DNA of 32,000 bases from positions 150,001 to 182,000 of the forward strand of contig CP001817.1 in NCBI GenBank assembly GCA_000217635.1, written 5' to 3'. The translations under genes were made by a program, and so were the position numbers. Below are positions 7,992-30,296 of the stretch, piece after piece. Under the pieces are notes generated by a model. It saw nothing but the letters and a program-made list of their open reading frames with translations, had not been told where the DNA came from and searched no databases. Source of the stretch: Candidatus Saccharimonadota bacterium (lineage in GTDB: Bacteria; Pseudomonadota; Gammaproteobacteria; Enterobacterales; Enterobacteriaceae). Positions within the stretch are counted from its first letter, which is position 1; each line of letters begins with the position of its first letter.

Positions 7992-10587
7992 ATGTTTAAA
8001 AAAATTATTGATAAATTTTTTTTAAATTATAGTAGTCGTATTTTAAAAAAAAATAAATTATTTTGTAAAAAAAATTAATTATTTAGAAAAAGATTTGGTT
8101 AGTTTATCGGATGCAGAATTAAAAAAAAAAACAATAATATTTAAAAATCGATTAAAAAAAGGAGAAACTTTAGAACAATTATTACCAGAAGCATTTGCTG
8201 TAGTACGAGAAGCTAGTAAACGGGTTTTTGGGATGCGTCATTTTGATGTTCAATTGTTAGGAGGTATCGTATTACATCAAAACTCGATTGCAGAGATGCG
8301 TACAGGAGAAGGTAAAACTTTAACTGCAACTTTACCGGTATATTTAAATGCGTTAGAAGGAAAAGGTGTACATGTTGTTACAATGAATGATTATTTAGCT
8401 AAAAGAGATGGTAATAAAAATCGTATTTTATTTAATTTTTTAGGATTAACTGTTGGTATAAATATAAGTAAGATGTCTAAAGCAGAAAAAAGAAAAGCTT
8501 ATTCTTCTGATATTACATATGGAACTAATCATGAATATGGTTTTGATTATTTACGCGATAATATGGTTTTTTGTAGCTCTAAAAAGGTTCAAAGAGAATT
8601 ATACTATGCATTAGTTGATGAAGTGGATTCAATTTTAATAGATGAAGCCCGCACTCCATTAATTATTTCTGGTCCTGTAGATCATAGTAATAGTATATAT
8701 ATTCATATTAATAAATTAGTACGTAAATTAACTTTACAAATTAAAGATCGTGATAAAAAAAAATATATACCAGGAGACTTTTTTATCGATCGAAAAGCGC
8801 GTCAGGTATATTTAACTGAAAAAGGTATGGATACTATAGAGAAATTATTAGTTTCATATAACTTCTTAACTTCTCAGGAATCATTATACTCACCTAAAAA
8901 TATTGTATTTATTCATCATATTTTGTTAGCACTTAAAGCACATTATATATTTTTTAATAATATTGATTATATTATAAAAATAAAAAATATTATGATTGTT
9001 GATGAACATACAGGAAGAATTATGCCTGGTCGTCGTTGGTCAGAGGGTTTACATCAGGCTATTGAAGCAAAAGAGCATGTTTTAATTCAACAAGAAAACC
9101 AGACTTTAGCTTCTATTACACTGCAAAATTACTTTCGTTTATATAAAAAATTATCCGGTATGACCGGGACTGCTATCACCGAAGAATTTGAATTTCGTTC
9201 GATATATAATTTAGAAACTGTGGTTATTCCTACAAATAAACCGATGATTCGTAATGATATGTCGGATGTAATATATCTTTCTTGTACAGAAAAATATAAG
9301 GCAATTGTTGCTGCAATTAAAGATTGTGTTTTGCGTAAACAACCGGTTTTAATAGGTACTGTTTCAATTGAAAAATCTGAATTATTATCTTCTTTTTTAA
9401 AAAAAAATTTTATTAAACATAATATTTTAAATGCAAAATTTCATGCCCAAGAAGCAGATATTATTGCGCAAGCTGGTCAATTAGGCGCTGTAACTATTGC
9501 AACTAATATGGCGGGAAGAGGAACAGATATTGTTTTGGGAGGAAATTTTGATTCTTCTTATATACATGAAAAAAATAATATTAATATAAAAAAAAGGAAT
9601 TTTTTAAAAAAACGCTGGAAAAAAAATAATGCATTGGTGATTCGTAGTGGTGGTTTACATATTATAGGTACTGAAAGGCATGAATCACGTCGTATTGATA
9701 ATCAGTTAAGAGGTAGAGCAGGAAGGCAAGGTGATCCTGGTTCTTCGCGTTTTTATTTATCTTTGGAAGATCCGTTACTTCAATTATTTTTATCAGATAA
9801 AATGATTTATTTTATGAAATTATTTGGTATTAAAAAGGAAGAATCAATTGAACATCCGTGGATTAATACAGCAATAGAGAATGCGCAAAAAAAAGTAGAA
9901 AACCAAAATTTTGATGTTCGTAAAAGTTTGTTAGAATATGATAATATTATTAATGAGCAACGAAAGGTTATTTATCATGAACGAAATAAAATTATTGATT
10001 CTAGCAATTTGAGTTCGTATATTCTTGTTATTTTCTCTAATCAAATAAAAAATTTTTTAAAAAAAAATATAATTCGAAATGATTTAGATTTTAATATTTT
10101 AAAAAAATTTAAAAATTTGTTTTTTTTAGTTTATCTCGTAAAAAAATTTTTGCAAAATAAATTATTATTCTCAAATAATATTAATCATATTAATAATTAT
10201 ATTGTAAAAATTATCCAAAAAGATTATATACAACATACTTCTCAGATATCTATTAAATACAGCATGATAATTGAAAAATATGTTATATTACAAATATTTG
10301 ATCAATTTTGGAGGGATCATTTAAATTCTCTTGATTTTTTAAGGAAAAATATTTATCTTCGTAGTTATGCTCAAAAAGATCCTACACAAGAATATAAAAG
10401 AGAATCTTTTAGTATGTTTGCTTCAATGTTAGAATCTATTAAAAAATTTATAATAAAAAGTTTATTAAATATTTTTTATAAAAATTTTGAAACACATAAA
10501 TATATTTTAATAAAATTTATTGATTCTAATGATTTTAAATCTTTACGTTATTTTATTACTAAACTTTGTGAAACTATTATAATATAA
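7992..10587 (+). CDS. secA: preprotein translocase ATPase SecA, interrupted near the 5' end by a 1-nt frameshift (uninterrupted ORF 8095..10587)
   Basis: The 830-aa ORF matches E. coli SecA from residue ~36 ([10 protein letters not shown]...[27 protein letters not shown]...[14 protein letters not shown]...[19 protein letters not shown]...[10 protein letters not shown]...[30 protein letters not shown]). The conserved N-terminus [20 protein letters not shown] (E. coli [20 protein letters not shown]) is encoded from ATG 7992 in a different frame that stops at TAA 8076-8078. Confidence 0.88.
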
Positions 10588-11127
10588 TAAAATTCAATTG
10601 GTGATGTAGTAAATTTTTCTTTTTCATAATCCTGTAAATATATTAAAAGATATTAACTTGAGATTTTAATTTTAATTATTTTATTAATATTAATTTTAAT
10701 AATTGTATTACATAAATTATAATAATATAACAAATTTATTAATTAAAATCAATCTCTCAATGTACATAATATTTATGTCAAACTATTTTAGTAAATAGAA
10801 AATTTTTTTATGAAAAATAAATTATGTCTATTTTAGAACATATAATTTTAAATATTTTCAATATATAAAACGTAATAAAACATTTATTATATTGAATTTT
10901 TTTAAAAAAAATATATATGTCTTTAATATTAGGTATAATTTTCTTTCATTATTATAATATCATATTTTTAAAATAAATAATTTTTATATAATATCAAAAT
11001 ATAATCATGTTATTTATTAAATATTTTAGTTAATAATATTTATATATTTTAAGTGAAAATATTTTAAAAAAATAATAATAGAATTATAACATATATATTA
11101 CAAAAATTTTTGTAAGGATATTGATAT

Positions 11128-13767
11128 ATGGTTACAAATATTTCTAACGATTTGGATCCATTAGAAACCAATGAATGGATTGAAGCAATTGAATCAGTTT
11201 TAAAAAATGACGGAAAGAACGAGCACTTTTTTTTAATAAAAAAAATTTTAGAAAAAATAAATATTGATGCTATTAACATAAATTTTAAAAATTATAATTT
11301 TATCAATTCTATACATTATACTGAAGAACCGCGGTATCCAGGAAATTTGAAAATTGAAAAAAATATTCGTTCTGTTGTTTGTTGGAACGCAATTATGATC
11401 GTTTTACGGGCTTCTAAAAAAAATTTAGATTTAGGAGGTCATATTTCATCTTTTCAATCTTTTGCGACAGTATATGAAGTATGTTTTAATCATTTTTTTC
11501 GTGCATCAAATAAATATGATGGGGGGGATTTAATATATTTTCAAGGACATGTTTCTCCGGGAATTTATGCTCGTGCTTTTTTAGAAGATCGATTAACAGA
11601 AACTCAGTTGGATAATTTTCGACAAGAAATATGTGGTTTTGGTTTATCATCTTACCCACATCCTAATTTAATGCCAGATTTTTGGCAATTTCCAACAGTT
11701 TCTATGGGTTTAAGTTCTGTTTGTGCAATTTATCAGGCTAGATTTTTAAAATATTTACATAATAGAAATTTAAAAAATACTACATTGCAAACTGTCTATG
11801 CTTTTTTGGGTGACGGAGAAATGGATGAGCCAGAATCTAAGGGAGCGGTTGTTTTAGCTGCACGAGAGCAATTAGATAATTTAATTTTTATAATTAATTG
11901 TAATTTGCAACGTTTGGATGGCCCGGTTTTTGGTAACGGAAAAATTATTAATGAATTATCCAGTTTTTTTTCTGGATGTGGTTGGCATGTGATTAAAGTT
12001 ATATGGAGTAGTCAATGGGATACTTTATTAGATCGAGATGATCAAGGATTTTTAAAACGTTTAATGAATGAAACAGTTGATGGAAATTATCAAACCTTAA
12101 AATCAAAAAATGGAGCATATGTTCGAAAACATTTTTTTGAAAGATATGAAGAAACTAAAAAATTAGTAGAAAATTTTACAGATAGTGAACTATGGGCTTT
12201 AAAAAGAGGAGGTCATGATCCTAAAAAAATATATGCTGCTTTTCATGAAGCTAAAAAAATTAAAGAAAAACCCGTTGTAATTTTAATACATACAGTAAAA
12301 GGTTATGGATTAGGAGAAGTTGGAGAGAGTAAAAATATTTCTCATCAGATAAAAACAATAAAAGATATTAATGTAAAATATTTATATGATCGTTTTAAGC
12401 TAAATGCGCATAAATCGGTAATTAATAATTTATCTTACATTAAATTTTTACCTGGTTCTGAAGAATATCACTATATACATCAGCAACGAAAAAAATTATA
12501 TGGATATTTACCTAAAAGATTAAAAAATTTTTCTAATTCTTTTAGGATTCCTACATTAAATGATTTTAAAATATTATTACAAAAACAATCAAAACCAATT
12601 TCTACAACTATGATTTTTATAAAAATATTAAATATATTGCTACGATTTCCTGGAATTCAAAAAAAAATAGTACCTATTATCGCTGATGAAGCACGTACTT
12701 TTGGTATGGAAGCTTTATTTCAGAAAATTGGTATTTACAATCATTTAGGTCAATTATATACTCCATCAGATAAAGAAAAATTATTATATTATAAAGAAGA
12801 AAAATCAGGACAAATATTACAAGAAGGTATTAATGAATTGGGAGCATGTGCTTCTTGGTTGGCTGCTGCAACAGCTTATAGTACAAATGATTTTCCTATG
12901 ATTCCTTTTTATATATATTATTCAATGTTTGGTTTTCAACGAGTAGGAGATTTATTATGGGCGTGTGGAGATCAAAATGCGCGAGGTTTTTTAATTGGAG
13001 CTACTTCAGGTAGAACAACTTTGAATGGCGAAGGTTTACAACATGCCGATGGACATAGTCATATATTATCTTTAACGATACCTAATTGTGTATCTTATGA
13101 TCCTGCATATGGATATGAATTATCTGTAATCATACAAGATGGATTACAACGTATGTATGGTAATAAACAAGAAAATATATTTTATTATATTACAACAGTA
13201 AATGAAAATTATTTAATGCCCTCAATGTCAAATATTATGTTAGAAGGAATCTGTAAAGGAATTTATTTATTAGAGACATTTTCAGGGAAAATAGGACGGG
13301 TACAGTTATTAGGATCAGGAGCTATTTTAGAACGTATTAGAAAAGCAGCAAGTATTTTACATGCAGAATACGATATTGGATCTGATGTATATAGTGTTAC
13401 TTCATTTACAGAATTAGCACGAAACGGTCAGGATTGTACGCGATGGAATTTTTTAAATCCTTTACAAACTAAAAAAATTCCTTATGTAAGTTCAATTATA
13501 AAAAACTATCCTACTATTGCTGCAACAGATTATATAAAAGTTTTTGCTGAACAAATTCGGGCATACATACCCTCTAAAATCTTTCATGTTTTAGGAACAG
13601 ATGGGTTTGGTCGATCTGATAGTCGAAAAAATTTGCGTAATTTTTTTGAGATCGATGAAAATTATATTATAAGCGCGGCAATTAATGCATTAGTAGATAG
13701 CAATACTATAGATCAAGATATATTATTAAAAGTTTTTAAAAATTTAATATTTTTTCAGATAAAATAA
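11128..13767 (+). CDS. aceE: pyruvate dehydrogenase E1 component (ancestral C-terminus continues in the -1 frame to 13793)
   Basis: 879-aa ORF, collinear with E. coli AceE (887 aa). Matching segments include YPGNLKIEKNIRS, GGHISSFQS, FLGDGEMDEPESKGA, INCNLQRLDGPV, ADEARTFGME, GRTTLNGEGLQHADGHSH and LGTDGFGRSDSR. Confidence 0.95.
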   Translation: MVTNISNDLDPLETNEWIEAIESVLKNDGKNEHFFLIKKILEKINIDAININFKNYNFINSIHYTEEPRYPGNLKIEKNIRSVVCWNAIMIVLRASKKNLDLGGHISSFQSFATVYEVCFNHFFRASNKYDGGDLIYFQGHVSPGIYARAFLEDRLTETQLDNFRQEICGFGLSSYPHPNLMPDFWQFPTVSMGLSSVCAIYQARFLKYLHNRNLKNTTLQTVYAFLGDGEMDEPESKGAVVLAAREQLDNLIFIINCNLQRLDGPVFGNGKIINELSSFFSGCGWHVIKVIWSSQWDTLLDRDDQGFLKRLMNETVDGNYQTLKSKNGAYVRKHFFERYEETKKLVENFTDSELWALKRGGHDPKKIYAAFHEAKKIKEKPVVILIHTVKGYGLGEVGESKNISHQIKTIKDINVKYLYDRFKLNAHKSVINNLSYIKFLPGSEEYHYIHQQRKKLYGYLPKRLKNFSNSFRIPTLNDFKILLQKQSKPISTTMIFIKILNILLRFPGIQKKIVPIIADEARTFGMEALFQKIGIYNHLGQLYTPSDKEKLLYYKEEKSGQILQEGINELGACASWLAAATAYSTNDFPMIPFYIYYSMFGFQRVGDLLWACGDQNARGFLIGATSGRTTLNGEGLQHADGHSHILSLTIPNCVSYDPAYGYELSVIIQDGLQRMYGNKQENIFYYITTVNENYLMPSMSNIMLEGICKGIYLLETFSGKIGRVQLLGSGAILERIRKAASILHAEYDIGSDVYSVTSFTELARNGQDCTRWNFLNPLQTKKIPYVSSIIKNYPTIAATDYIKVFAEQIRAYIPSKIFHVLGTDGFGRSDSRKNLRNFFEIDENYIISAAINALVDSNTIDQDILLKVFKNLIFFQIK

Positions 13768-13783
13768 ACCCGCGTTTAGGTTT

Positions 13784-13789
13784 GAGAGG
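13784..13789 (+). promoter_or_regulatory. Shine-Dalgarno-like GAGAGG, 7 nt upstream of the aceF GTG start
   Basis: The sequence reads tttGAGAGGttagataGTG. It is the only purine/G-rich patch in the aceE-aceF junction. Confidence 0.5.
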
Positions 13790-13796
13790 TTAGATA

Positions 13797-15050: not shown

Positions 15051-15140
15051 TTTAAATTTTTATATAAAAAATATTATTATTTGGTAGATTTATACTATTT
15101 AAAAAAATTTTTATTTTAAATAAACGAGAGTAAAAAACTC

Positions 15141-16556
15141 ATGAAAAAAAATATAAATGTTGATGTAGTAGTCATTGGAGGTGGTCCTTCTGGATATTCC
15201 TCAGCTTTTCGTTGTGCAGATTTAGGATTATCTGTTGTTATTATAGAAAAATACGGAGTTTTAGGCGGAACATGTTTAAACGTAGGATGTATTCCGTCTA
15301 AATCATTACTACATTTAGCTACTCTAATTAAGGAAACAAAATCATTTTTACAATATGATATAGAATTATTAAATGTCAATAAAATTAACATGAATAATAT
15401 AATGAAATGGAAAAATGATATTATTATTTCATTATCTAATGGGTTAAATTATTTAGCAAAAAAACGAAATGTGGATATTATTCATGGTGTTGCTTCTTTT
15501 ATTGATATTAATACTGTAGAAGTAGTTTGTAAAGATATACATTATATAATTTATTTTAATTATGCAATTTTAGCAGTTGGTTCAAAACCAGTACAAATAC
15601 CTAATATTCCATATGGAGATGCTCGTATTTGGAGTTCTACTCATGCATTAAATTCTATTAATATTCCAAAGCGTTTATTAATTATTGGAGCGGGTATTAT
15701 TGGCTTAGAGATGGCCACAATATATAGTGCTTTAGGATCTCAAATAGATATTATTGATAATTCTTTAGAGTTTTTTCCGGGTATAGATTCAGATATTAGA
15801 GATATTTTTATTAAATATACTAAAAAAGATTTTATGATAAATATGAATACTATTATCAATAAAATTGAATCATTAGAAAATGGAATTATGGTTACGCTGC
15901 AAAATAATAATAAAACTACAGATAAAATATTATATGATAATATATTAATTGCGACAGGAAGAATACCTAATATTGATTCTATTAATTTACAAGATATTAA
16001 TATTAAGTTAAATGAATTTGGTTTTATTAATGTAGACTTACAATTAAGAACTAATATATCACATATTTTTGCGGTAGGAGATGTTGTTGGAAAACCAATG
16101 TTGGCTCATAAAGGAATTTATGAAGCCCATATTGCTGCAGAAGTGATTGCCGGAAAGGATCATTATTTTGACCCAAAAGTGATTCCATGCGTTGCTTACT
16201 GTGACCCAGAAATTGCATGGACAGGTATTTTATCAAAAAAAGCAAAAGAATTAAAAATTCCTTGTCGTATTATATCTATTCCTTGGAATTTTTCTGGAAG
16301 AGCGATATCATCAAATTGTGCAGCATTTGGCATGACAAAATTATTGATTCATGAAGAAAATAAAAAAATAATTGGTGGTATTATAATTGGTCGACATGCT
16401 GGAGAATTAATTACTCAAATTAGTTTAGCAATTGAAATGTCATGTGATATAGAAGATGTTGCCTTAACAATTTATCCTCATCCAACATTATCAGAATCAA
16501 TTAATATTGCTGCTCAAGTATTTAACAAAACGGCTACGGATATATTAAACATATAA
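15141..16556 (+). CDS. lpdA: dihydrolipoamide dehydrogenase (E3)
   Basis: 471-aa ORF. FAD-binding VVVIGGGPSGYSSAF, redox disulfide GGTCLNVGCIPSK and C-terminal HPTLSES. Collinear with E. coli Lpd (474 aa). Confidence 0.95.
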   Translation: MKKNINVDVVVIGGGPSGYSSAFRCADLGLSVVIIEKYGVLGGTCLNVGCIPSKSLLHLATLIKETKSFLQYDIELLNVNKINMNNIMKWKNDIIISLSNGLNYLAKKRNVDIIHGVASFIDINTVEVVCKDIHYIIYFNYAILAVGSKPVQIPNIPYGDARIWSSTHALNSINIPKRLLIIGAGIIGLEMATIYSALGSQIDIIDNSLEFFPGIDSDIRDIFIKYTKKDFMINMNTIINKIESLENGIMVTLQNNNKTTDKILYDNILIATGRIPNIDSINLQDINIKLNEFGFINVDLQLRTNISHIFAVGDVVGKPMLAHKGIYEAHIAAEVIAGKDHYFDPKVIPCVAYCDPEIAWTGILSKKAKELKIPCRIISIPWNFSGRAISSNCAAFGMTKLLIHEENKKIIGGIIIGRHAGELITQISLAIEMSCDIEDVALTIYPHPTLSESINIAAQVFNKTATDILNI

Positions 16557-17695: not shown

Positions 17696-18852
17696 TTAAT
17701 TGATTTTTTTACGTAAAAAAGCGGGAATATCTAAAAAATTTTTTCGTTTTGATTATTGGGTGTTATATTTTTCTCTTTCATTTTATTCTCTGAATAAGTA
17801 TTATTCGTATCGTTTTGATTTAAAGATAGTTTATTTTGATATCCAAGTAACATATCTTTAGATGATCGGTTATTCATGAGCATTATATCAGAGTGTTTAT
17901 CGCCTCCTATCCCGGTAGCTACCACTGTAACTCTTAAGGATTCTTCCATCTTAGGATCTAATGAAGTTCCTATAACTACTGTTGCATTATCTGATGAAAA
18001 TGCTCGAATTGTATTTCCTACTGTTTCAAATTCATCTAAACGTAAATCAAAACCGGCTGTAATATTCACTAATACTCCTTTTGTTCCAGATAAATCAATA
18101 TCCTCTAATAATGGACTGGAAATAGCAATTTCAGAAGCTTCTTCTGCTCTATTTTCACCAGAAGCAGACCCGGTTCCCATCATAGCATATCCCATTTCTG
18201 ACATAACGGTGCGCACGTCTGCAAAATCAACATTCATTAAACCTGGTCGAGTAATTAACTCTGCAATTCCTTGAACCGCTCCTTTTAAAATATCATTAGC
18301 TGCTTTAAACGCATCTAATAAAGATATTCCTCGTGATAAAACTTTTAACAATTTATCGTTAGGTATAGTAATTAATGAATCTACAGATTTTGATAATTCT
18401 TGTAAACCTTGTTCTGCATATATCATTCTTTTTTTTCCTTCAAAACTGAAAGGTTTTGTTACAACAGCAACCGTTAATATACCTAAATCCCTTGCTATTT
18501 TAGCAATTATAGGAGTTGCTCCTGTCCCAGTTCCTCCGCCCATACCTGCCGCTATAAAAATCATATCAGCACCTTCAAGGGCTGATTTCAGTCTTTCTGT
18601 ATCTTCTTCTGCAGCCGTTCTTCCTACTTCTGGATTTGCTCCAGCACCTAATCCTTTAGTAATATTATTTCCTATTTGTATAGTTTGTCCTACATCTATT
18701 TTACGCAAAGCTTGTGCGTCTGTATTAATTGCAAAAAATTCTACTCCCTCTATTTTTTCGCGAATCATATGTTCTACAGCATTACTTCCCCCACCACCTA
18801 TACCTATTACTTTAATAATCGCATCATTTTCTAAATTAACTGGTTCAAACAT
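17696..18852 (-). CDS. ftsZ: cell division GTPase FtsZ; annotated ORF 17731..18852 stops just before the conserved C-terminal peptide, which continues in the -1 frame to 17696
   Basis: 373-aa ORF with tubulin signature [15 protein letters not shown] start region and NVDFADV. Its AAGGA Shine-Dalgarno lies upstream of ATG 18852. The -1 frame after the A6T6 run (17733-17744) encodes [13 protein letters not shown] then a stop (TAA 17696-17698). E. coli FtsZ ends [14 protein letters not shown]. Confidence 0.9.
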
Positions 18853-18910: not shown

Positions 18911-20150
18911 TTAAAATTCTTTTTTTAACCAATTGTATATTTGTCTAATCCAATTATGTAATATTCCTATTTTCTTTGGAATGATTTTTTTTATTTTTTT
19001 TCCATATTGTAATAATCCAATAATTGTTGAGTATTCTGGTTGTGTAATATTTTCTGGAAGATCTGGTAGATTTGGTTTTTTAAGGATTACATTGGTTTGA
19101 AATATTTTTGTTGCATATAGTGGTAATGATTTGATTTGCGATGCTCCACCCGTTAAAACAATTCCCATTAACAATTTATTTTTATTTTTTATTTCTAAAT
19201 TGAATTCACATTTTAATAGTTCATGATTAACTAATTGTAATAATTCAGAATATCTTGATTCAATAACTTCTACTAATTTTGCATGTTGTAAATTTTTTAT
19301 TTTTTCGCCATTTTTTTTAAAGATATCTATATTATTTTTGATATTACGTAAATCACTAATAACTGATCCGTATTTTTTCTTTATAAATTCAGCATCATAA
19401 TATGATAAAGAAAAAGCATAAGCGATATCTTTAGTAACTATATCGCCTCCATAAGGAATAACAGCACTATGCCGTAATGATCCTTGTGTATAAATACTGA
19501 TATTAATTATTTCTCCGCCGATATCTACTAAGCAAACCCCTAATTTTTCTTCTTCTGTTAAAATTGCTTCACTTGCAGCTAATCCAGAAAAAATAATTTT
19601 TGATACTTTTACCCCGCATTTTTCAATTGCTTTAGTTATATTTTTTTCAAGACTATAACAAGAAGTTATTAAATGTACATTAGCTTGCATACGTACACCG
19701 GATAGTCCTAATGGATTTTTTATATTTGATTGCTGGTCAATTGAAAATTCTTGCGGAATAATATGTGTTATGAATCGGTCATTCCTTATTTTTATTGATT
19801 GCGCAGTTTTAATAGCATTTTTAATATCGTCACGAGTAACTTCATCTTGTTTAATTGGAACTACGCCAATTTCATTTAAACATTCTATATCTTTATGTGA
19901 AATTGATACATATACTGATGTAATCTTATATTTTGCAACTTTTTCAGCTTCATAAATAGATTTTTTAATACATGAGATTAATAATTCTAAATTATTGATA
20001 TGACCATTTTCTATCCCATACGATTGATTTTGACTAAATCCAATAATTTCTATATTTTGATTATTTAGAATAGCTCCAATTAATACTATAATTTTTTTTT
20101 GACCCTATTTCCAAACCAACTACTATATTTTTATTATTTGAAATACTCAT
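18911..20150 (-). CDS. ftsA: cell division protein FtsA, interrupted by a 1-nt frameshift in an A9 tract at codon ~19
   Basis: ATG at 20150 gives MSISNNKNIVVGLEIGSKK (E. coli ...RKLVVGLEIGTAK). After the tract (T9 on + strand, 20092-20100) the protein continues in the +1 frame: IIVLIGAILNNQNIEIIGFSQ...NPLGLSGVRMQANVHLITS...LVDIGGE...VLTGGASQI...NWLKKEF. This is collinear with E. coli FtsA to the C-terminal amphipathic helix. The ORF track only shows 18911..19690, from an internal Met. Confidence 0.88.
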
Positions 20151-21548
20151 GTTTAACCTGTATTTATGGTTATTCTATTTTTTTATGATTATTTAAGGAG
20201 ATCCTTATTATATAGGATTTTTTGATTTATAATGTAATCTAGATTTTCTATTAAATTATTATGTTTATTAATCATATTATTTGATGTGTTTTATAATATA
20301 AAAAAATAGGTATTGTAATTAATAAAAATAATTTTGTAAGTACATAAAATATGTATTTATTTTTTTTATTGCTCTATTGTAGAGATTGATTCTTTATTTT
20401 AATATAAAAATTTTAAATAAAATTATAGATATTTTTTTTAAATCGATTTATTGTTATATAATTTAGTATTATTATATGCATAATTAAGTATTTATTATGA
20501 TAAATAAAATTTATTATCAGGATAGATTTTTATTTCTTATGTTTGAAAACATTAAATTCTTATATATTTTATAGATATTTAATAGATAAAATATAAAAAA
20601 AATTAATTTTTAAAAGATATCAAACATTAATAAAAAGTAAATTAGGATATATTTTGATTTTTAAAAAATATGTTAAAAAAATTTTTTATTTAATAATATT
20701 AAATATATTATATAAATAATGAACTGGATATAATATTAACTATGGTTTTATTTTTTATTTGTTCTTATATAGAATTAAATATATTTTTAATTTGAAAAAT
20801 TACGATTTTTAATAAAAAAAATTTTAAATTTGATTAATTATTTATAATTTATAGTTGCAATAATAATAAATTATTTTATATGACTTTATAATGTTATATC
20901 TCTATTTGAGATAATATGATAATAATGAATTATTTATTTTTTAGATATTTTTATTTGTAAAAGAGTATAAGTGGTTTTATAGTTTTATTATTAAAGATAA
21001 TGCATCACTTTTTTTCTTTTTACTTTTATTTATTAACTGCAACACTTATTATTAATAAGTATAGCTAATAATATTAAATTATTATACATGAATAATGTAA
21101 AAGGTTTTAATTCAATTGTATAAAATTTTAAAAATGATTTTTTTTTGTTTAAATTTTTTTTTAGAATTTTATAACATTAAAAAAGATATTATTTATTTTA
21201 ATAAATATTAAATTTAATAACTTTTAATATTAAAAATATAATTGTAAAAATATATGTTGTATTATTATTAAATAATCAATATTGTTTTTTAAAAAAGATA
21301 CATGCTATATCTTATATAATATAATGTAATATTTTATATGTAAAAAAATATTAAGTTTTAAAATAAAAATTTTAAAAAATTTTTTATTACACCAATATAG
21401 ATGTTTATTAATTTTATTAATTTTAAATTATTATATATATATTTTTAAATGATAAAAATTTAATGTCATTTAAAGTATTAGAAAATTTTTTATTTTTATT
21501 TATATAATATTATTTTTAATATGTATTATATTAATAAAATATATAGAA
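20151..21548. other. 1.4-kb non-coding spacer where the ftsL-ftsI-murE-murF-mraY-murD-ftsW-murG-murC-ddlB-ftsQ block sits in E. coli
   Basis: It is flanked by ftsA (start 20150) and rsmH (stop 21549) on the same strand. There is no ORF in the track, G/C is almost absent, and I found no recognisable remnant peptide in any frame. Confidence 0.7.
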
Positions 21549-22583: not shown

Positions 22584-23096
22584 TTAATCATTAATAGTCT
22601 CATGTTTTTTTTTATAAAATTCTTTACTAATACTTATAACCCCAGATCTAACGGTTTCTATTACTTTAAATAGTTGTTTTATAATATATAAAAAATTATC
22701 GATAATGTTGCTTGTTCCAAATATTTGAATGGTATATGTATGAGCAGTAATATGAATAATATCACCGTGGTATAATTTTATTAATTGTGTAATATCAAAT
22801 TTTTTTTCATTTTCTTTTATATTAATTGTGATTAATAAAATTTCTCTTTCAATATATTGTCCTTTTTTCATCTCGGAAACACGAAATACATCGATCAATT
22901 TATGTAATTGTTTTTCAATTTGTTCAATTATCTTTTGATCTCCATGGGTTTGAATAGTCATTTTAGATAAAGTTGGATCTTCAGTAGGTGCTACAGTTAA
23001 ACTATCAATATTGTACCCACGTTGTGAAAATAGCCCTATTACTCTAGATAAAGCTCCCGATTCATTTTCTAAAAGAATGGATAGTATTCTTTTCAT
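22584..23096 (-). CDS. ilvH: acetolactate synthase III small (regulatory) subunit
   Basis: 170-aa [53 protein letters not shown] is nearly identical in pattern to the E. coli IlvH N-terminus. Confidence 0.94.
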
Positions 23097-23107
23097 ATTA
23101 TTTAACC

Positions 23108-24822
23108 TTAATTTCTTAATAACATTTCATTCATCCCGCCATTTTTTATTTGCATAGGATAAATATGTTCAGTTGGATCAATATGTATATCTAAAAATAC
23201 TAAAGATCCATGATTAACTATGTTAATCGCATGTAATAATTTTTTTTAATGTCAGAAGGTTTATTAATTATTAAGCCAATATGTCCATATGATTCTACTA
23301 ATTTTACAAAATTTGGTAATGATTTCATATATGAATGTGAATGTCGTCCAGAATATATCATATCTTGCCACTGTTTCACCATACCTAAAGATTGATTATT
23401 TAAATTGATTATTAAAATAGCTATTTTATATTGTTTTGCAGTAGATAGTTCTTGGATATTCATTTGAATACTTCCATCACCAGTAATGCATATTACTAAT
23501 TCGTTTGGAAAAGCTAATTTTACACCGAGAGCAGCTGGAAGTCCAAAACCCATAGTTCCTAATCCACCTGAATTAATCCAATGACGCGGTTTTTTAAAAT
23601 TATAATATAATGCAGTAAACATTTGATGCTGTCCAACATCTGAAGTAATATATGCATTTCCTTGAGTTAAAGAAGATAACTCTTTTATTACACCTTGTGG
23701 TTTAATAAAATTTTGAGAATTTTGATATTGAAGACATTGTATTTGTTTCCATTGATCAATTAGCTTCCACCATGCACATAAATAATTTTTTTCTCTTATA
23801 TTATTTTTTTTGTTTAAAAAATATAAGATTTCTTTTAAAATAATTTTAGCATCACCAACAATAGGAATATGCGCTGTAATTGTTTTAGAAATAGATGTAG
23901 GATCTATATCAATATGTATTATTTTAGCGGTTGGACAATACTTTTTAATGTTATTTGTTGTACGATCATCAAAACGTACCCCGATAGCTAAAATAACGTC
24001 GGAATAATGTATTGCCATATTAGCTTCATAGGTACCATGCATACCTAACATGGATAAGTTTTGTGGATGATCTCCGGGAAATGCGCCTAATGACATTAAA
24101 GATAAAACAACAGGAATATTTAATTTTGTTGCCAATTGATATAATTCTGAATGACTATTTGAATTAATGATTCCGCCTCCAGCATAAATAATCGGTTTTT
24201 TTGCTTTTATAAAAATTTTTATTGCTTTTTTAATTTGACCTATATGTCCATTTTTAATGGGATTATATGATCGAATATTGATTGATTCTGGCCATATATA
24301 ATTTTTTTTTATATTTTGATCTAATATATTTTTAGGTAAATCTATTACTACTGGTCCTGGTCGACCGCTTGTAGCTAATAAAAAAGATTTTTTAAAAATT
24401 TCTGGAATTTCTTCAGTTTTTTGTACTAAGAAACTATGCTTAACAATAGGGCGAGAAATCCCAATCATATCACATTCTTGAAATGCATCATAACCCATTA
24501 GTTCTGAAGAAACTTGACCTGAAATTATTAATAAAGGAATAGAATCCATATAAGCTGTTGCAATTCCAGTAATAGAATTGGTAGCTCCAGGCCCTGAAGT
24601 TACTAATACTACTCCAATTTTTCCAGTTGCCCGTGCATAACCATCAGCCATATGTGCGGCACCTTGTTCGTGTCTTACTAAAATGTGCTTTATTTTTTTT
24701 CCGATTGTTTTAAATGCATCATATATATCTAATACAGCGCCACCAGGGTATCCAAATATAATTTTAATATTTAAATCAATTAGTGATTGAATGACCATTT
24801 CAGCGCCTGATAATAACTTCAT
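23108..24822 (-). CDS. ilvI: acetolactate synthase III large subunit, with a 1-nt frameshift in an A8 tract ~45 codons before the ancestral stop
   Basis: The true start is ATG 24822 ([28 protein letters not shown] vs E. coli [28 protein letters not shown]), with AAGGA upstream. The 40-codon extension in the ORF track is low-complexity. ThDP motif [14 protein letters not shown]...[12 protein letters not shown] is present. The zero frame stops at 23218-23220. The -1 frame gives [43 protein letters not shown] then a stop (TAA 23108-23110), collinear with the E. coli C-terminus. Confidence 0.9.
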
Positions 24823-25077
24823 AGTATATGGTCCTTTTTTTATATATTTTTTTTTTAATTTCTTTATTTTAGTAAAAATTTTTATTTTATTATTTTTTAA
24901 AGTAAAATAACAAATAATTTTTTTTATTAATATAGTATACATATTTTAATATTATTAAAAAAACTTTTATGTTTAGTTTTTTTTAAATTTTTATTTTATG
25001 TAATATTAAAATTATTTTTTATGTTATGTTTTTTTAATTTTTAATTATATAAATATTTTTTTTATATAATATTTTCA

Positions 25078-25095
25078 CCGTCTTATATAAGACGG
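25078..25095. terminator. perfect 18-bp palindrome ccgtcttatataagacgg between dapD stop and ilvI start; possible dapD terminator hairpin
   Basis: 7-bp G/C-containing stem (ccgtctt/aagacgg) around atat, 59 nt downstream of the dapD stop on the minus strand. It is the only G/C cluster in this spacer. There is no U-run directly after it. Confidence 0.35.
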
Positions 25096-25153
25096 ATAAA
25101 AATATTATATATATTATTATGCATATAAATATTGATTATTATTAAAAAAAATA

Positions 25154-25942
25154 TTAATTTTCTCGGAGCAATAAATTAAGTTCGGTTTTTTTTAATGTTT
25201 TATAATCTACTTTTTTAACAATAACAGCGCAATATAAGTTAATTTTTTTATCCGTTGAGGGAAGAGATCCAGGTACTACTACTGATCCATTTGGAACTTT
25301 TCCATAAAAAATATTATTTGTTTCGCGATCATAAATTTTTGTACTTTGTCCGATGTACACGCCCATAGAGATGACAGATCCTTGACCAATTATTACACCT
25401 TCTACTATTTCTGAGCGCGCACCAATAAAACAATTATCTTCAATAATTGTAGGATTATTTTGTAGAGGTTCTAATACACCACCTATACCAACTCCTCCGG
25501 ATAAATGAACATTTTTTCCGATTTGAGCGCAAGATCCAACAGTTGCCCATGTGTCAATCATGCTATTTTTTCCAATATGAGCTCCGATATTAACAAAACT
25601 AGGCATAAGTATAACATTTTTATCAATAAATGAACCATATCTAACGGTTGCATATGGTATAATACGAATATTATCATTAATAAATTGATTTTCATCATAT
25701 TTTTTATATTTTAAAGGTATTTTGTCATAATATGAGTTTTCGGCGCATTTGAATATTTTATTTTTTTTTGAGTATAAATATAATAATACGGATTTTTTAA
25801 TCCATTGGTGAGTTATCCAGGTTTTATTAATTTTTTCGGATACTTTAATTTTACCAAAATTTAATAAATCAATAGCTTTATTTATTATTTTTTTATCTTT
25901 AGCTTGAATAATATAGTTTTTTATTTTATTTTTTTTGATCAT
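25154..25942 (-). CDS. dapD: tetrahydrodipicolinate N-succinyltransferase
   Basis: 262-aa [16 protein letters not shown] and hexapeptide-repeat core [51 protein letters not shown] are nearly identical to E. coli DapD. Confidence 0.95.
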
Positions 25943-26117
25943 AAATATAATCTATATTTTTTTTAGTTCTAACATGTTAATATATAACCTTTCTAAAATG
26001 ATAAACAGTTTAAATCTATTTATTTTTTTGTTAATTTTTATACTATGATATAATTTATTTGGTTTAATATTAGAATTAGATCAATTTTTATAAAAAGTTT
26101 AAAAATATTTGAATGAC

Positions 26118-26909: not shown

Positions 26910-27328
26910 AATTTTAAATTTTTATATAGTTAATTTAATTGATATTTTATTGTAATTAAAAGTTTTTTATCTATATTTTTTATATATAATGTTTTTAAGT
27001 TTATTTATTAAATAATATATATAAGTAGATATTTAAAATATTTTATTTATATATCAAATTTTTTATGTAAAATTGTTATTATATGGTGTATTTTATATAA
27101 AGGATTATAAGAGGTAACTAATATAATATATACTATACTATACTATATAGAATAATCATTCTATATTAAAGGTTATATATAAAAATTATGAGAATTATTT
27201 TTTTTATTTAAGATTAAAAATTTTTTTTAATTTACTTAATTTTTTACTATTTATAATATAGTATAAAATATATTTAAGTTTTATTATTTTTTTAATTATG
27301 AATGGTAAAAATTTTTTTAAATATTTTA

Positions 27329-27333
27329 GAGGG
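27329..27333 (+). promoter_or_regulatory. Shine-Dalgarno GAGGG, 5 nt upstream of the rpsB ATG
   Basis: The sequence reads ttttaGAGGGttatcATG. Confidence 0.55.
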
Positions 27334-27338
27334 TTATC

Positions 27339-28055
27339 ATGGATATTAAATTAATGAAAGATATGATTACAGCCGGAGTACATTTCGGACATCAAACACG
27401 ATTTTGGAATCCTAAAATGAAACCTTTTATTTTTGGAATACAAAATAAAGTACATATTATTAATTTAGAAAAAACTGTCCCATTATTTCAAAGTGCTATT
27501 AAAGAATTACAGAATACTATTAAAAAAAATGGAAAAATATTGTTTGTAGGGACTAAGCGTGCAGCAAGTAGTTTAATTAAAGAATCAGCGATTTTATGTA
27601 AACAATTTTACGTAAATAAACGTTGGTTAGGTGGTATGCTAACAAATTGGAAAACTGTACGTCAATCCATTAAAAAATTAAAAGATTTAGAGTTACAATC
27701 TCAAGATGGAACATTTGAAAAATTAACAAAAAAAGAGGTTTTATTACGAATGCGTTCATTGCAAAAATTAGAAAATAGTTTAGGTGGAATTAAAAATATG
27801 GGAGGTTTGCCAGACGCTATCTTTATTATTGATACACTTTATGAAAATATTGCAATACAGGAAGCTAATAATTTAGGAATTCCAGTATTTGCCATTGTAG
27901 ATACTAATTCTAGTCCCGATGGTATCGATTACATTATTCCAGGAAATGATGATGCAATTCGGTCTATTAAATTATATTTAAACATACTTACATTAGAATT
28001 ATTAAAAATATTTCCTAAAAAAAATATTTCACAGTATATTAAAAGTCCTACATAA
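27339..28055 (+). CDS. rpsB: 30S ribosomal protein S2
   Basis: 238-aa [45 protein letters not shown] and [18 protein letters not shown]. Collinear with E. coli S2. Confidence 0.96.
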
Positions 28056-28175
28056 AATATTAATTTTTATTTTTTTTTAATATTTAAAGGTAAATATCTA
28101 TTTTCAATTAAAATTTAATTTACAGTATTAAATAGTAAAAAAATAAGATCATATACTTTATTAAGGGTGAAACCA

Positions 28176-28982
28176 ATGGATCATTTATTTTTGTTAATAA
28201 AAGAATTAAGAAAAAAAACTGGATCAGGATTAATAGATTGTAAAAATGCTTTGATACATACTCGTGGTGATATTAATAAAGCAATTGATTATTTAAGAAG
28301 CTCTGGAACTTGTTTAGCATTAAATAAACTTTCTAATAAAACAACAGAAGGTGGTGTATTTGTTTGTATACATAATACTACAGGTTTTATATTAGAATTA
28401 AATGCAGAAACAGATTTTGTTACACATACTAATGAATTTAAAAAATTTGGTCAAGAATTAGTAAATTATGCAAGTAAACATGATATTGATAATGTAAATG
28501 TTTTAAAAAAAATATTTAAAAAAGAAATAGTTTCTTTAATTACTAAAGTGTCAGAAAATATTAAAATTAATAGAATTAAAAAAATCTTTGGAAATATAAT
28601 AATTTCGTATATTCATATGAATAAAATTGGTGTTCTTGTCGCTTCTTCTAATTTAGAATTATCATTGAAACAAAAAGAATGTATGAAAAATATTGCTATG
28701 CATATTGTTGCATTAAATCCAATATGTTTAACGCAAAAAGAAATTCCACAAAATATTATAGATCGTGAATTATCTATTCAAACGGAATTAGCGAAAAAAA
28801 CAGGTAAATCTGCTTTATTGTTACAAAGAATTATAGATGGTCGTATGAAAAAATTTATTAATAATAATACATTATTAAATCAAAAATTTGTTATGGATAT
28901 TAAAAAAAATATTCGAGAATTTTTAGAAGAAAATAAGGTTTCACTTAGTGGTTTTATTAGACTACAAGTAGGTACAGCATAA
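28176..28982 (+). CDS. tsf: elongation factor Ts
   Basis: The ORF track starts at GTG 28167. I prefer ATG 28176 (MDHLFLLIKELRKKTGSGLIDCKNAL vs E. coli [27 protein letters not shown]) because AAGGGTG lies just upstream and the N-terminal length fits better. Ends GFIRLQVGTA, about 20 residues shorter than E. coli. Confidence 0.9.
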   Translation: MDHLFLLIKELRKKTGSGLIDCKNALIHTRGDINKAIDYLRSSGTCLALNKLSNKTTEGGVFVCIHNTTGFILELNAETDFVTHTNEFKKFGQELVNYASKHDIDNVNVLKKIFKKEIVSLITKVSENIKINRIKKIFGNIIISYIHMNKIGVLVASSNLELSLKQKECMKNIAMHIVALNPICLTQKEIPQNIIDRELSIQTELAKKTGKSALLLQRIIDGRMKKFINNNTLLNQKFVMDIKKNIREFLEENKVSLSGFIRLQVGTA

Positions 28983-29739
28983 TTCTTCATTAATTGTTTA
29001 ATAATTTGAAGTGATTTATTAAAGTTGGTTTTATTTTAATTTATAGTATTTAAGGTAGTTTTATAAAAATAAGTATTACTATTAATTTTAAAAAATTTAA
29101 TTGATTAATAAAATATAATTTTTAATATATTAAATAAATTAATTATTTTATGTAATATTTTTAAATATCAATATATTTATTTGATTATTATAATAATTTC
29201 TAAGAGTTATAAAAATTAAAATAGAATATATACATACTTTTAATTATTAATTGAATATTTATAAATAATGATTTTTTTTTCTCATTTTTTAAATGGTATT
29301 TTAATAGATCAAAAATAATAGATTTTATTGAAAAGATTAATTGATGATTATATTTATATAATTTTTATTATATTAGTTGTTTACTATTCATAATTAATAA
29401 TATGATTTTTATATATTTAATATTAAAATGGGTTTTTATAATGATTTATAATATTTTTATGAAAATTACTTAGTTTTATTCTTATTGTAAGAAATATTAT
29501 TTTATTGATTAATATAAAATATTAATAAAAAATATACTTTTAAAGAACATAATATATAAGTATATTAAAGTGATTAAATAAATGTTTTTAATATCTTTAA
29601 GTAATTTTTTTTCTAAATATATTAATGTAATATCTGTTATTATTGGATTATATTTAATATATAAAAAAAATAAAAATTTTTTTTAAGTTCTTATTAATTT
29701 TATAATTAATTCTAATACTTATATAAGGATTTCTAAAAA
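28983..29739. other. 757-bp non-coding spacer occupying the position (and roughly the length) of pyrH
   Basis: In E. coli the order is rpsB-tsf-pyrH-frr and pyrH is ~0.73 kb. Here tsf and frr are separated by 757 nt with no ORF, almost no G/C and no recognisable UMP-kinase motif in any frame. Confidence 0.6.
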
Positions 29740-30296
29740 ATGATTAATTCATTAGTAGAATATGTTCGTGTTTCCATGAATAAATGTGTTATAGTTTTTC
29801 AAGATGATTTAAACAATATACGTGCTAATCATGTTACGCCATCATTATTAAAAAATATTTATATTGAATATTTTGGTGTTAAGACTTCGTTGTTCCAATT
29901 ATCTAATATTGTTGTAGAAGACAATAATACATTAAAAATAACATTATTTGACGAATCTATAAAAAATACAGTGGAAAAAGCTATTATAAATTCAAATTTA
30001 GGTTTTAATCCAATTTCGATAGATTCTATTATTCGTATTCCTGTTCCTATTTTATCTGAGGATAGAAGAAGAGAATTAGTAAAAATGATTAAAAAAGATT
30101 CTGAACATACCCGGGTTACAATAAGAAATATTAGGCGAGATGCGCATGAAAAGTTAAAAATTTTTTTAAAAAATAAAAAATAACACAAGATTTAATGCGA
30201 GATTATAAAAAAGAAATTCAAGATTGTACCGATATGTTTATTAAAAAAATTAATAAAATAGTTGCTCTCAAAGAAAATGAGTTAATGAATGTTTAA
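29740..30296 (+). CDS. frr: ribosome recycling factor, with a 1-nt frameshift in an A6 tract (uninterrupted ORF 29740..30183)
   Basis: The 147-aa ORF is collinear with E. coli RRF residues 1-147 ([29 protein letters not shown]...[18 protein letters not shown]...[12 protein letters not shown]). The -1 frame from 30180 gives [38 protein letters not shown] then a stop (TAA 30294-30296), collinear with E. coli [38 protein letters not shown]. Confidence 0.9.

What the first reader, a model, noticed from the sequence alone, without database searches (positions are those of the whole stretch)
7992..30296. Six conserved, mostly essential genes are each broken by one 1-nt length change in a short A or A/T homopolymer, with the displaced part still open and homologous
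The six sites are:
- secA: one A too many, in A9 8045-8053 or A8 8067-8074.
- aceE: A5 13738-13742, one too few.
- ftsZ: A6T6 17733-17744, one too few.
- ftsA: A9 (T9 on + strand) 20092-20100, one too many.
- ilvI: A8 23240-23247, one too few.
- frr: A6 30175-30180, one too few.

I translated the alternative frame by hand for each gene. It either continues collinearly with the E. coli orthologue to a proper stop (12, 17, 38 and 43 codons for ftsZ, aceE, frr and ilvI) or begins at a proper ATG with the conserved N-terminus (secA, ftsA). In DNA this A+T-rich an unselected frame should close quickly (my rough expectation is about ten codons). The truly dead pcnB in the same window has already gained nonsense codons. 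The displaced segments therefore look maintained.

Possible explanations:
- (a) RNA-polymerase slippage on A tracts restores the frame in a fraction of transcripts; this mechanism is already established for poly(A) tracts in Buchnera and Blochmannia.
- (b) Ribosomal -1/+1 slippage.
- (c) Homopolymer-length errors in the assembly.
- (d) Very recent inactivations.

Six of 21 non-pseudogene loci in 32 kb seems too many for (d). Several tracts (A5, A6) are shorter than those usually linked to efficient transcriptional slippage, so (b) and (c) stay open.
Basis: partly seen in the sequence, partly recalled or inferred. Interest (0 to 1): 0.8.

Follow-up and report, generated by a model that had tools for sequence, protein, structure and literature searches.

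The report
Probable homopolymer sequencing errors, Buchnera genome
Conserved genes in this stretch of the aphid symbiont Buchnera aphidicola (Cinara tujafilina) really are broken by one-base changes in A/T runs, but the pattern fits uncorrected sequencing errors in the public assembly much better than real biology.

Summary
All six tracts sit at the stated coordinates. One single-base repair per gene restores full-length SecA, AceE, FtsZ, FtsA, IlvI and Frr.

The window is the Buchnera aphidicola (Cinara tujafilina) chromosome, CP001817 (444,925 bp).

The displaced segments evolve under the same purifying selection as the rest of each gene (dN/dS 0.146 against 0.147 versus the Cinara confinis strain). 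None of the six frameshifts is shared with any of four related strains. dapD carries two more A-run lesions, and the "dead" pcnB is in fact the most constrained gene in the window (dN/dS 0.059, no stop codons in the orthologue's frame).

At least 7 of 20 genes are frameshifted, including secA and frr. Validated Buchnera genomes have 1-18 such frameshifts genome-wide (P about 2e-6).

Every lesion is a +1/-1 change in a low-complexity A/T run; there are no nonsense substitutions. The depositors annotated the truncated ORFs as ordinary genes. DNA from this aphid was sequenced by 454 in that laboratory.

Best explanation (about 0.78): homopolymer miscalls in an unpolished 454 assembly. Genuine frameshifts rescued by transcriptional slippage (already known biology) remain possible (about 0.1). 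Read pile-ups would decide.

The parts
7992..8053 (+). secA start codon, first 20 codons and the A9 tract (8045-8053). One A too many relative to the downstream frame.
   Evidence: C. confinis has A8 here. Deleting one A gives an 864-aa SecA collinear with the 867-aa orthologue.
8054..10587 (+). Body of secA in the +1 frame. The first in-frame start is TTG at 8095, which would drop the N-terminal 34 aa.
   Evidence: Pfam SecA_DEAD matches only from profile position 32.
11128..13742 (+). Body of aceE, ending in the T5A5 tract (A5 13738-13742). One base too few.
   Evidence: Relatives have T4A6 or T4A7. The 879-aa truncated ORF is deposited as AEH39724.1.
13743..13793 (+). Displaced aceE C-terminus (KFNIFSDKINPRLGLRG, then stop), collinear with E. 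coli KFNIDADKVNPRLA.
17733..18852 (-). Body of ftsZ, ending in the A6T6 tract (17733-17744). One base too few.
   Evidence: Relative L005 has exactly A7T6 in frame. The 373-aa truncated ORF is deposited as AEH39728.1 and has no RefSeq WP accession.
17696..17732 (-). Displaced ftsZ C-terminal peptide ([11 protein letters not shown], then stop), the conserved FtsA/ZipA-binding tail.
   Evidence: 11 of 11 residues identical to C. confinis.
20092..20150 (-). ftsA ATG, first 19 codons (MSISNNKNIVVGLEIGSKK) and the A9 tract (20092-20100). One A too many.
   Evidence: Relatives have TCT/TCC followed by A7.
18911..20091 (-). Body of ftsA in the shifted frame. There is no ATG/GTG/TTG start for about 150 codons.
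23240..24822 (-). Body of ilvI, ending in the A8 tract (23240-23247, followed by TT). One base too few.
   Evidence: AEH39732.1 (574 aa) starts 40 codons upstream, at 24942, and lacks the true C-terminus.
23108..23239 (-). Displaced ilvI C-terminus, 43 codons (LLHAINIV...MNEMLLRN, then stop).
   Evidence: tblastn 84% identity to C. confinis, E = 4e-18. dN 0.081, dS 0.766.
29740..30180 (+). Body of frr, ending in the A6 tract (30175-30180). One A too few.
   Evidence: C. confinis and L008 have A7. The 147-aa ORF is deposited as AEH39737.1 / WP_013877874.1. All other homologues are about 185 aa.
30181..30296 (+). Displaced frr C-terminus, 38 codons. This is the last helix of the RRF three-helix bundle (assignment from my knowledge of the fold).
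   Evidence: Repaired Frr aligns 1-185 end to end with the RRF structure 1IS1. The truncated ORF covers only 127 of 164 Pfam RRF positions.
25929..25975 (-). Not in the finding: dapD start region with two more A-run lesions. A8 25957-25964 faces A9/A11 in relatives, and C 25937 followed by A8 25929-25936 faces A8 in relatives. A TAG is left at codon 8.
   Evidence: The intervening codons read NIDYIYD in the ancestral frame against NIDFIYD in C. confinis. AEH39733.1 is the 262-aa restart ORF.
4760..5927 (-). Not in the finding: pcnB, split over three frames by at least 8 A-run length changes. Examples: A8 5906-5913, A5 5885-5889, A7 5784-5790, A7 5248-5254, A7 5184-5190.
   Evidence: Read in the orthologue's frame: 245 codons, 0 stops, 93.9% identity, dN/dS 0.059.

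Best explanation
The window is part of the public Buchnera aphidicola (Cinara tujafilina) chromosome, CP001817. Most or all of the six frameshifts, and the two extra ones in dapD, are homopolymer-length miscalls in an assembly made from 454 pyrosequencing reads and never polished with a homopolymer-accurate technology. In the living bacterium the tracts would be secA A8, aceE A6, ftsZ A7T6, ftsA A8, ilvI A9T2 or A8T3, frr A7, and dapD A9 with C followed by A7, so all these genes would be intact.

Shown here: the organism's identity, the lesions, their exclusive homopolymer nature, the intact selection signature, the absence of the frameshifts from relatives, and the excess over validated genomes.

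Inferred: the sequencing platform of this particular record, and the true tract lengths.
For: 1. Identity. Lpd is 100% identical to AEH39726.1 / WP_013877863.1 on a 444,925-bp contig, and CP001817.1 has that length.

2. Every lesion is +1 or -1 in or beside an A/T run lying in very low-complexity context (T7A6TA6, A6T6, T5A5T3). No gene has a nonsense substitution or a larger out-of-frame indel. One edit per gene restores full-length orthologues.

3. The displaced segments show no relaxation of selection: dN/dS 0.146 against 0.147.

4. All relatives are in frame at every site: C. confinis (L002/L007) plus whichever of L005, L006 and L008 cover it. L005 has exactly A7T6 in ftsZ, and both relatives have A7 in frr.

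5. At least 7 of 20 non-pcnB genes are affected. Validated Buchnera genomes have 1-18 homopolymeric frameshifts in the whole genome, and B. aphidicola from C. cedri has 3. The binomial P is 2e-6 or less. Blochmannia vafer has 8 such genes genome-wide, and B. chromaiodes against B. pennsylvanicus has 22 frameshifting indels.

6. frr (A6) and secA are universally retained. All other Frr homologues are about 185 aa, and the truncated Frr loses 37 of 164 Pfam positions. If an A6 tract must be a miscall, the assembly is unreliable even at 6-mers.

7. In dapD the -1/+1 pair encloses a TAG, so it cannot be a selected compensation. The enclosed codons are conserved in the ancestral frame.

8. The depositors annotated the truncated ORFs as ordinary CDSs without comment, so these sites were evidently not checked.

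9. Bacteriocyte DNA of C. tujafilina from this laboratory was sequenced on 454 FLX/Titanium, and their later Serratia assembly from it needed iterative Illumina polishing. The same group's 2011 Serratia genome was 454 only. [quoted passage not shown]

10. CP001817 has the highest CDS count (394) and the most non-coding DNA (78.5 kb) among the Lachninae Buchnera rows visible in the excerpt, as expected from split and truncated genes.
Against: - No reads or independent assembly of this strain could be found, so the true tract lengths are not observed.
- The methods of the genome paper (Lamelas et al. 2011) are not in the library. '454 only, unpolished' is therefore inferred.
- Runs of 5-6 (aceE, frr, ftsZ) are short for consensus errors if 454 coverage was high.
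- The ilvI lesion may lie in a T2/T3 run, and the dapD one involves a C.
- Real homopolymer frameshifts do occur in Buchnera, and slippage rescue is documented.
- One related strain (L006) has lost ftsZ-ftsA altogether, so real decay of those two genes is not absurd.
- pcnB carries far more lesions per A-run (at least 8 over 13 runs of 7 or more) than the other genes. A uniform error rate does not explain that.
Confidence: 0.78

Rival explanations
1. The frameshifts are real. RNA polymerase slippage on the A/T tracts restores the frame in a fraction of transcripts, so that reduced amounts of full-length protein are made. This is the mechanism established for poly(A) tracts in Buchnera and Blochmannia.
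For: - The genes are otherwise intact and under purifying selection.
- All lesions are in A/T runs.
- The mechanism is accepted in the field, and such genes are routinely annotated as functional.
- Transcript insertions in Buchnera rise exponentially with run length.
Against: - Only secA and ftsA have A9. The others have runs of 5-8, where slippage is orders of magnitude rarer.
- secA and ftsA need a transcript deletion, the rarer event in homopolymers: 16 of 57 deletions against 151 of 157 insertions fell in runs.
- A transcriptome-wide survey saw no case of a restored frame.
- None of the sites is conserved in four related strains, whereas selectively maintained slippage sites are reported to be conserved between populations and species.
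- The density is more than 10 times that of any validated genome.
Confidence: 0.1
2. Some of the frameshifts are real, very recent inactivations or C-terminal remodellings without rescue. Candidates are ftsA together with the FtsA-binding tail of ftsZ, the last 17 codons of aceE, and pcnB. The rest are errors.
For: - A related Buchnera (L006) has lost ftsZ and ftsA at the syntenic site.
- Real frameshifting indels in Blochmannia cluster at 3' ends or occur in compensating pairs.
- pcnB has an anomalously high lesion density.
Against: - There is no relaxation of dN/dS in the displaced parts or in pcnB. All events would have to fall in the last few percent of the lineage.
- It cannot apply to frr or secA.
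- It requires a burst in 7-8 of 21 genes with no older decayed examples.
Confidence: 0.07
3. The frameshifts are real and are corrected during translation, by -1 or +1 ribosomal slippage or sliding on the lysine-encoding A runs.
For: - A-rich runs provide slippery codons.
- ilvI has a strain-specific hairpin pair starting about 10 nt downstream of the tract (-16 kcal/mol, z = -3.9).
Against: - Five of six sites have no downstream structure (z from -0.8 to +1.5).
- There are no Rfam hits.
- The sites are not conserved in relatives.
- Both shift directions would be needed.
- Part of the ilvI structure is a by-product of conserved Gly-Ser and Asp-Pro codons that relatives share.
Confidence: 0.03

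Closest known systems
Homopolymer-length miscalls in 454 (Roche) pyrosequencing assemblies of A+T-rich endosymbiont genomes
   Same: The lesions are exclusively +1/-1 changes in A/T runs and hit essential genes at random. The genes are otherwise perfect, and the lesions are absent from relatives sequenced with other chemistries. Other groups found such errors and removed them with Illumina reads.
   Different: Here the errors would have stayed in the public record and been annotated as normal but truncated proteins. Some tracts are only 5-6 nt long, which is short for a consensus error. The read evidence itself could not be inspected.
Poly(A)-tract frameshifts rescued by transcriptional slippage in Buchnera and Blochmannia (Tamas et al. 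2008; Wernegreen et al. 2010, as summarised)
   Same: A single frameshift in an A/T homopolymer of an otherwise intact, selectively constrained gene of an aphid endosymbiont.
   Different: The known cases number 1-18 per genome and typically sit in long tracts (for example 11 A in B. vafer visC). Several are conserved between populations or species. Here about a third of the genes are hit, the tracts are 5-9 nt, and none is shared with relatives.
3'-terminal and compensated frameshifting indels in Blochmannia chromaiodes/pennsylvanicus (Williams and Wernegreen 2013)
   Same: aceE and ftsZ are hit near the 3' end. dapD and the 5' end of pcnB show paired indels in neighbouring A runs.
   Different: The Blochmannia 3'-end indels affect at most 13 codons, far fewer than ilvI (43) or frr (38), and the new frame becomes the protein's C-terminus. 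Here the ancestral frame stays open and conserved, and the dapD pair encloses a stop codon, so it does not compensate.
Programmed ribosomal frameshifting (dnaX -1, prfB +1)
   Same: Frame change at a slippery A-rich sequence.
   Different: No conserved stimulatory elements and no conservation among orthologues. The two frames do not encode alternative functional products.

Membership tests
454 homopolymer assembly error | The record was derived from pyrosequencing reads without polishing by a homopolymer-accurate method | tested here: inconclusive
   C. tujafilina bacteriocyte DNA from this laboratory was sequenced on 454 FLX/Titanium, and the same group's 2011 Serratia genome was 454 only. 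The methods of the genome paper itself are not held.
454 homopolymer assembly error | All lesions are +1/-1 length changes of mononucleotide runs, with no other kind of inactivating mutation | tested here: met
   No nonsense substitutions were found, and there are 0 stops in 245 pcnB codons read in the orthologue's frame. Caveats: the ilvI lesion may be T3 to T2, and the dapD one involves a C beside an A8.
454 homopolymer assembly error | A single-base correction restores a full-length orthologue with a normal selection signature | tested here: met
454 homopolymer assembly error | Frameshift density far above that of genomes validated by Sanger or Illumina | tested here: met
   At least 7 of 20 genes, against 1-18 per whole genome. 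P is 2e-6 or less.
454 homopolymer assembly error | Read pile-ups or an independent assembly show the in-frame length | not testable with these tools
   No independent DNA or protein of this strain was found.
Transcriptional-slippage-rescued poly(A) frameshift gene | The frameshift is genuinely present in genomic DNA | not testable with these tools
   Only the deposited consensus is available.
Transcriptional-slippage-rescued poly(A) frameshift gene | A tract long enough for frequent slippage (about 9 or more A/T) | tested here: not met
   Two of six tracts (secA, ftsA) are A9. The others are A5, A6, A6T6 and A8. Slippage rises exponentially with run length.
Transcriptional-slippage-rescued poly(A) frameshift gene | The gene is otherwise intact and under purifying selection | tested here: met
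Transcriptional-slippage-rescued poly(A) frameshift gene | The frameshifted tract is conserved among related strains or species | tested here: not met
   All relatives are in frame at all six sites.
Transcriptional-slippage-rescued poly(A) frameshift gene | Length-heterogeneous transcripts and full-length protein | not testable with these tools
   No RNA or proteome data are available.
Programmed ribosomal frameshift site | A stimulatory element (downstream structure or upstream Shine-Dalgarno-like sequence) at the right spacing | tested here: not met
   Five of six downstream 70-mers are unstructured. Only ilvI has a hairpin, and part of it is explained by conserved coding sequence.
Programmed ribosomal frameshift site | Conservation of the shift site in orthologues | tested here: not met
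   No Rfam match.
Recent pseudogene | Relaxed selection (raised dN/dS, nonsense codons, larger indels) downstream of the lesion | tested here: not met
   Displaced segments have dN/dS 0.146 against 0.147 for the rest. pcnB has 0.059.

The most novel reading that the evidence does not exclude
The deposited sequence is right. This Buchnera strain genuinely carries frameshifts in about a third of its genes, including secA, frr, ftsZ and ftsA, and stays alive because polymerase and/or ribosome slippage restores the frame even at A5-A8 tracts. That would be genome-wide dependence on decoding infidelity, far beyond the handful of long-tract cases known.
Probability: 0.05. Interest if true: 0.8.

Novelty: not a real feature. 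Interest (0 to 1): 0.13.

Why it matters
If these are errors, the point is practical. A reference genome (CP001817 / its RefSeq copy) and the protein databases carry truncated or mis-started versions of essential proteins. Examples:
- a 147-aa ribosome recycling factor, WP_013877874.1;
- a 373-aa FtsZ lacking its FtsA-binding tail;
- an IlvI with 40 spurious N-terminal residues and 43 missing C-terminal residues.

The chromosome probably contains on the order of a hundred such lesions (my extrapolation from one 32-kb window). Gene-loss, pseudogene-count and metabolic-complementation analyses that use this genome would be biased.

If the frameshifts were real, they would greatly extend the known scope of slippage-based rescue. 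The evidence points the other way.

Tried and rejected
Search for an independent copy of this strain:
- Exact-protein look-up of Lpd found nothing on record.
- A metagenome scan with a strain-specific 29-mer beside the ftsA tract gave 0 hits.
- Exact look-up of repaired Frr, FtsZ and FtsA found them absent from the 15-billion-protein collection.
- The closest relative found is the C. confinis strain, at 83% Lpd identity.

Papers not in the library: Lamelas et al. 2011 (the genome paper), Tamas et al. 2008 and Wernegreen et al. 2010. The platform and the slippage thresholds therefore come from secondary sources. No paper found comments on frameshifts in this genome.

A homologue search with a pcnB fragment returned no Buchnera proteins. 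The C-terminal half of pcnB could therefore only be traced against E. coli.

Tests that found nothing:
- Ribosomal-frameshift stimulators: negative except a weak, partly coding-derived structure at ilvI.
- tRNA and Rfam scans: empty.

Arguments I rejected:
- 'An open alternative frame proves selection.' A frame that was in use until recently stays open for historical reasons. I used dN/dS instead.
- The secA 3' pair of 1-nt gaps as a further error. The window's own frame is the only one without stops there, so it is genuine divergence or a real compensated change.


Full report
**What the window is.** The window has 22.6% G+C. Its Lpd protein (15141-16553) is 100% identical to AEH39726.1 / WP_013877863.1 of Buchnera aphidicola (Cinara tujafilina), on a 444,925-bp contig. 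A published table gives that length for CP001817.1. tblastn with E. coli and relatives' proteins gives this gene order: thrB, thrA, pcnB, dksA, truA, secA, aceE, aceF, lpd, erpA, ftsZ, ftsA, a 1.4-kb spacer, rsmH, ilvH, ilvI, dapD, map, rpsB, tsf, a 758-bp spacer, frr, bamA.

**Checking the observation.** All six tracts are at the stated coordinates. Three-frame translation shows the homologous reading frame jumping at each. One 1-nt edit per gene yields SecA 864 aa, AceE 888, FtsZ 385, FtsA 412, IlvI 571 and Frr 185. These match the orthologues of the closest available relative, Buchnera of Cinara confinis (LT667503.1, loci L002/L007: 867, 885, 384, 415, 572 and 185 aa). Repaired Frr aligns residue 1 to 185 with solved RRF structures. 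Random stop frequency in this composition is 0.09 per codon, so the four open C-terminal frames have a joint chance probability of 2.6e-5.

Three refinements follow from the alignments.
- For secA the first tract is the culprit: A9 against A8 in C. confinis, while the second tract has equal length in both.
- For ilvI the missing base may be a T: A8T2 against A8T3 in L005.
- For ftsZ, relative L005 has exactly A7T6 against the window's A6T6.

**Are the displaced parts maintained?** A frame that was in use until recently stays open for historical reasons, so I measured selection directly. Against C. confinis (Nei-Gojobori), the pooled displaced segments (107 codons) have dN 0.077 and dS 0.528, giving ω = 0.146. 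The remaining 3008 codons of the same five genes have dN 0.103 and dS 0.701, giving ω = 0.147. The displaced parts have therefore been under full purifying selection over essentially the whole divergence. This rules out old pseudogenes. It does not separate rescue, very recent mutation and sequencing error.

*dapD.* The gene begins [16 protein letters not shown], where C. confinis has MLELKKNIDFIYDKKNK. At the DNA level the window has A8 where relatives have A9 or A11. Twenty-seven bases later it has C followed by A8 where relatives have A8. The enclosed codons read NIDYIYD in the ancestral frame. The pair encloses a TAG, so it is not a working compensation. The simplest reading is an A9 called as A8 plus an A-to-C substitution followed by an A7 called as A8.

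It is split over three frames by at least eight A-run length changes. Read in the orthologue's frame, however, its first 245 codons have no stop, 93.9% identity and ω = 0.059, the lowest in the window. Its stops are frameshift-induced, exactly as in the six genes. The control is invalid.

The other twelve genes show no frame-disrupting indel (thrA and thrB judged only from ORF lengths).

**Comparison with relatives and with validated genomes.** At every one of the six sites the C. confinis strain is in frame, and so are the strains in L005 (SRR21069242), L006 (SRR33594963) and L008 (SRR21069211) wherever they cover the site. Nearly all 120 listed Frr homologues are 185 aa, and only this record's is 147.

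Buchnera genomes validated by Sanger or Illumina carry 1-18 homopolymeric frameshifts per whole genome, and the C. cedri strain carries 3 (PMC3164680). Blochmannia vafer has 8 such genes. B. chromaiodes against B. pennsylvanicus differ by 22 frameshifting indels genome-wide. Here at least 7 of 20 genes in 32 kb are hit even without pcnB. At the highest published rate that has P = 2e-6. The genes hit include secA and frr, which every Buchnera retains.

**Nature of the lesions.** Every one is a +1 or -1 change in or beside an A/T run in extremely low-complexity context, for example T7A6TA6 at frr, A6T6 at ftsZ and T5A5T3 at aceE. There is not a single nonsense substitution or larger out-of-frame indel. 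The coding part of the window holds 71 A/T runs of 8 or more, 210 runs of 6-7 and 201 runs of 5. Without pcnB, about 5, 2 and 1 of these are affected. The rate rises with run length.

**Provenance.** The depositors annotated the truncated ORFs as ordinary CDSs:
- Frr 147 aa, AEH39737.1;
- FtsZ 373 aa, AEH39728.1;
- AceE 879 aa, AEH39724.1;
- DapD 262 aa, AEH39733.1;
- IlvI 574 aa, AEH39732.1, whose normal-looking length comes from 40 spurious N-terminal codons offsetting 43 missing C-terminal ones.

These sites were evidently not noticed or verified. FtsZ and IlvI have no RefSeq WP accession in the look-up.

The genome paper is not in the library. The same laboratory states that C. tujafilina bacteriocyte DNA was sequenced with 454 FLX and FLX Titanium. 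It also states that its later Serratia assembly from that material was polished iteratively with HiSeq reads (PMC4122931). Its 2011 Serratia genome was 454 only. [quoted passage not shown] In a 2024 re-annotation, CP001817 has the most CDSs (394) and the most non-coding DNA (78.5 kb) of the Lachninae Buchnera listed in the excerpt I read, as expected if genes are split or truncated.

**Weighing the mechanisms.**

*Transcriptional slippage (a).* This is real, known biology, but it fits poorly.
- Only two tracts reach A9.
- secA and ftsA would need the rarer transcript deletion.
- Insertion rates fall exponentially with shorter runs, and no restored frame was seen transcriptome-wide.
- None of the sites is conserved in relatives, unlike selectively maintained slippage sites.

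*Ribosomal frameshifting (b).* It lacks support. Five of six downstream regions are unstructured, there are no Rfam hits, and there is no conservation. Only ilvI has a strain-specific hairpin (z = -3.9), and part of it derives from conserved Gly-Ser and Asp-Pro codons.

*Recent inactivation (d).* It would need a burst of events in a third of the genes within the last few percent of the lineage, and it cannot apply to frr or secA. For ftsA together with the ftsZ tail, for the aceE 3' end and for pcnB it remains conceivable. One relative (L006) has lost ftsZ-ftsA entirely, and real 3'-terminal frameshifts occur in Blochmannia.

*Assembly error (c).* It explains everything at once: only homopolymers are hit, both signs occur, essentiality makes no difference, selection is intact, relatives lack the lesions, the dapD pair is non-compensating, and the annotation is silent. 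Its weak points are:
- the platform is inferred rather than documented for this record;
- runs of 5-6 are short for consensus errors at good coverage;
- pcnB has far more lesions per run than the other genes.

**Verdict.** The most likely cause is uncorrected homopolymer miscalls in the public assembly (about 0.78). A minority possibility (about 0.2 in total) is that some or all lesions are real, either rescued by the already known slippage mechanism or very recent. I could not find reads or an independent assembly of this strain. The decisive test is a read pile-up at the listed coordinates.

Noticed in passing
window 4760-5927 (- strand): pcnB is split by at least 8 A-run length changes, yet read in the orthologue's frame it is the most conserved gene in the window (93.9% identity, dN/dS 0.059, no stops). 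Its lesion density per A-run is about ten times that of the other genes. Neither a uniform error rate nor an old pseudogene explains this. The authors appear not to have annotated it as a CDS.
   Followed up: partly
window 25929-25975 (- strand): dapD has a -1/+1 pair in two neighbouring A runs that leaves a TAG at codon 8. The database protein (262 aa) starts at an internal ATG. The intervening codons are conserved in the ancestral frame.
   Followed up: yes
window 24823-24942 (- strand): The deposited IlvI (AEH39732.1, 574 aa) starts 40 codons upstream of where homology to E. coli and all relatives begins. This offsets the 43 missing C-terminal residues and gives a deceptively normal length.
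   Followed up: partly
window 28983-29739; L007 9444-10000; L006 20491-21216: pyrH (UMP kinase) is absent between tsf and frr in this strain and in the C. confinis strain. The spacers are very A+T-rich and give no tblastn signal. The strain from SRR33594963 still has a 241-aa pyrH there.
   Followed up: partly
L006 12319-12995: The Buchnera in SRR33594963 has no ftsZ or ftsA at the syntenic site between erpA and rsmH. Only a 677-bp spacer of 6% G+C is left, with a faint match to the FtsZ C-terminal peptide. This looks like loss of the division genes in that lineage, though they could lie elsewhere in its genome.
   Followed up: partly
window 23170-23239 (- strand): Downstream of the ilvI tract the RNA folds into two hairpins (-16 kcal/mol, z = -3.9). 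The first (GAUUAAC...GUUAAUC) is specific to this strain. The second comes from conserved Gly-Ser and Asp-Pro codons.
   Followed up: partly
window about 10130-10160 (secA 3' region): Relative to C. confinis there is a pair of opposite 1-nt gaps 14 nt apart (T8...A7 against T7...A6), changing five codons (LVYLV against YNLSY). The window's own frame is the only open one, so this looks like a genuine compensated frameshift or clustered substitutions.
   Followed up: partly
window 20151-21548: A 1.4-kb spacer of about 15% G+C lies between ftsA and rsmH, where E. coli has ftsL through ftsQ. C. confinis has a similar 1.2-kb spacer. It is presumably the remnant of the lost mur/fts genes.
   Followed up: no
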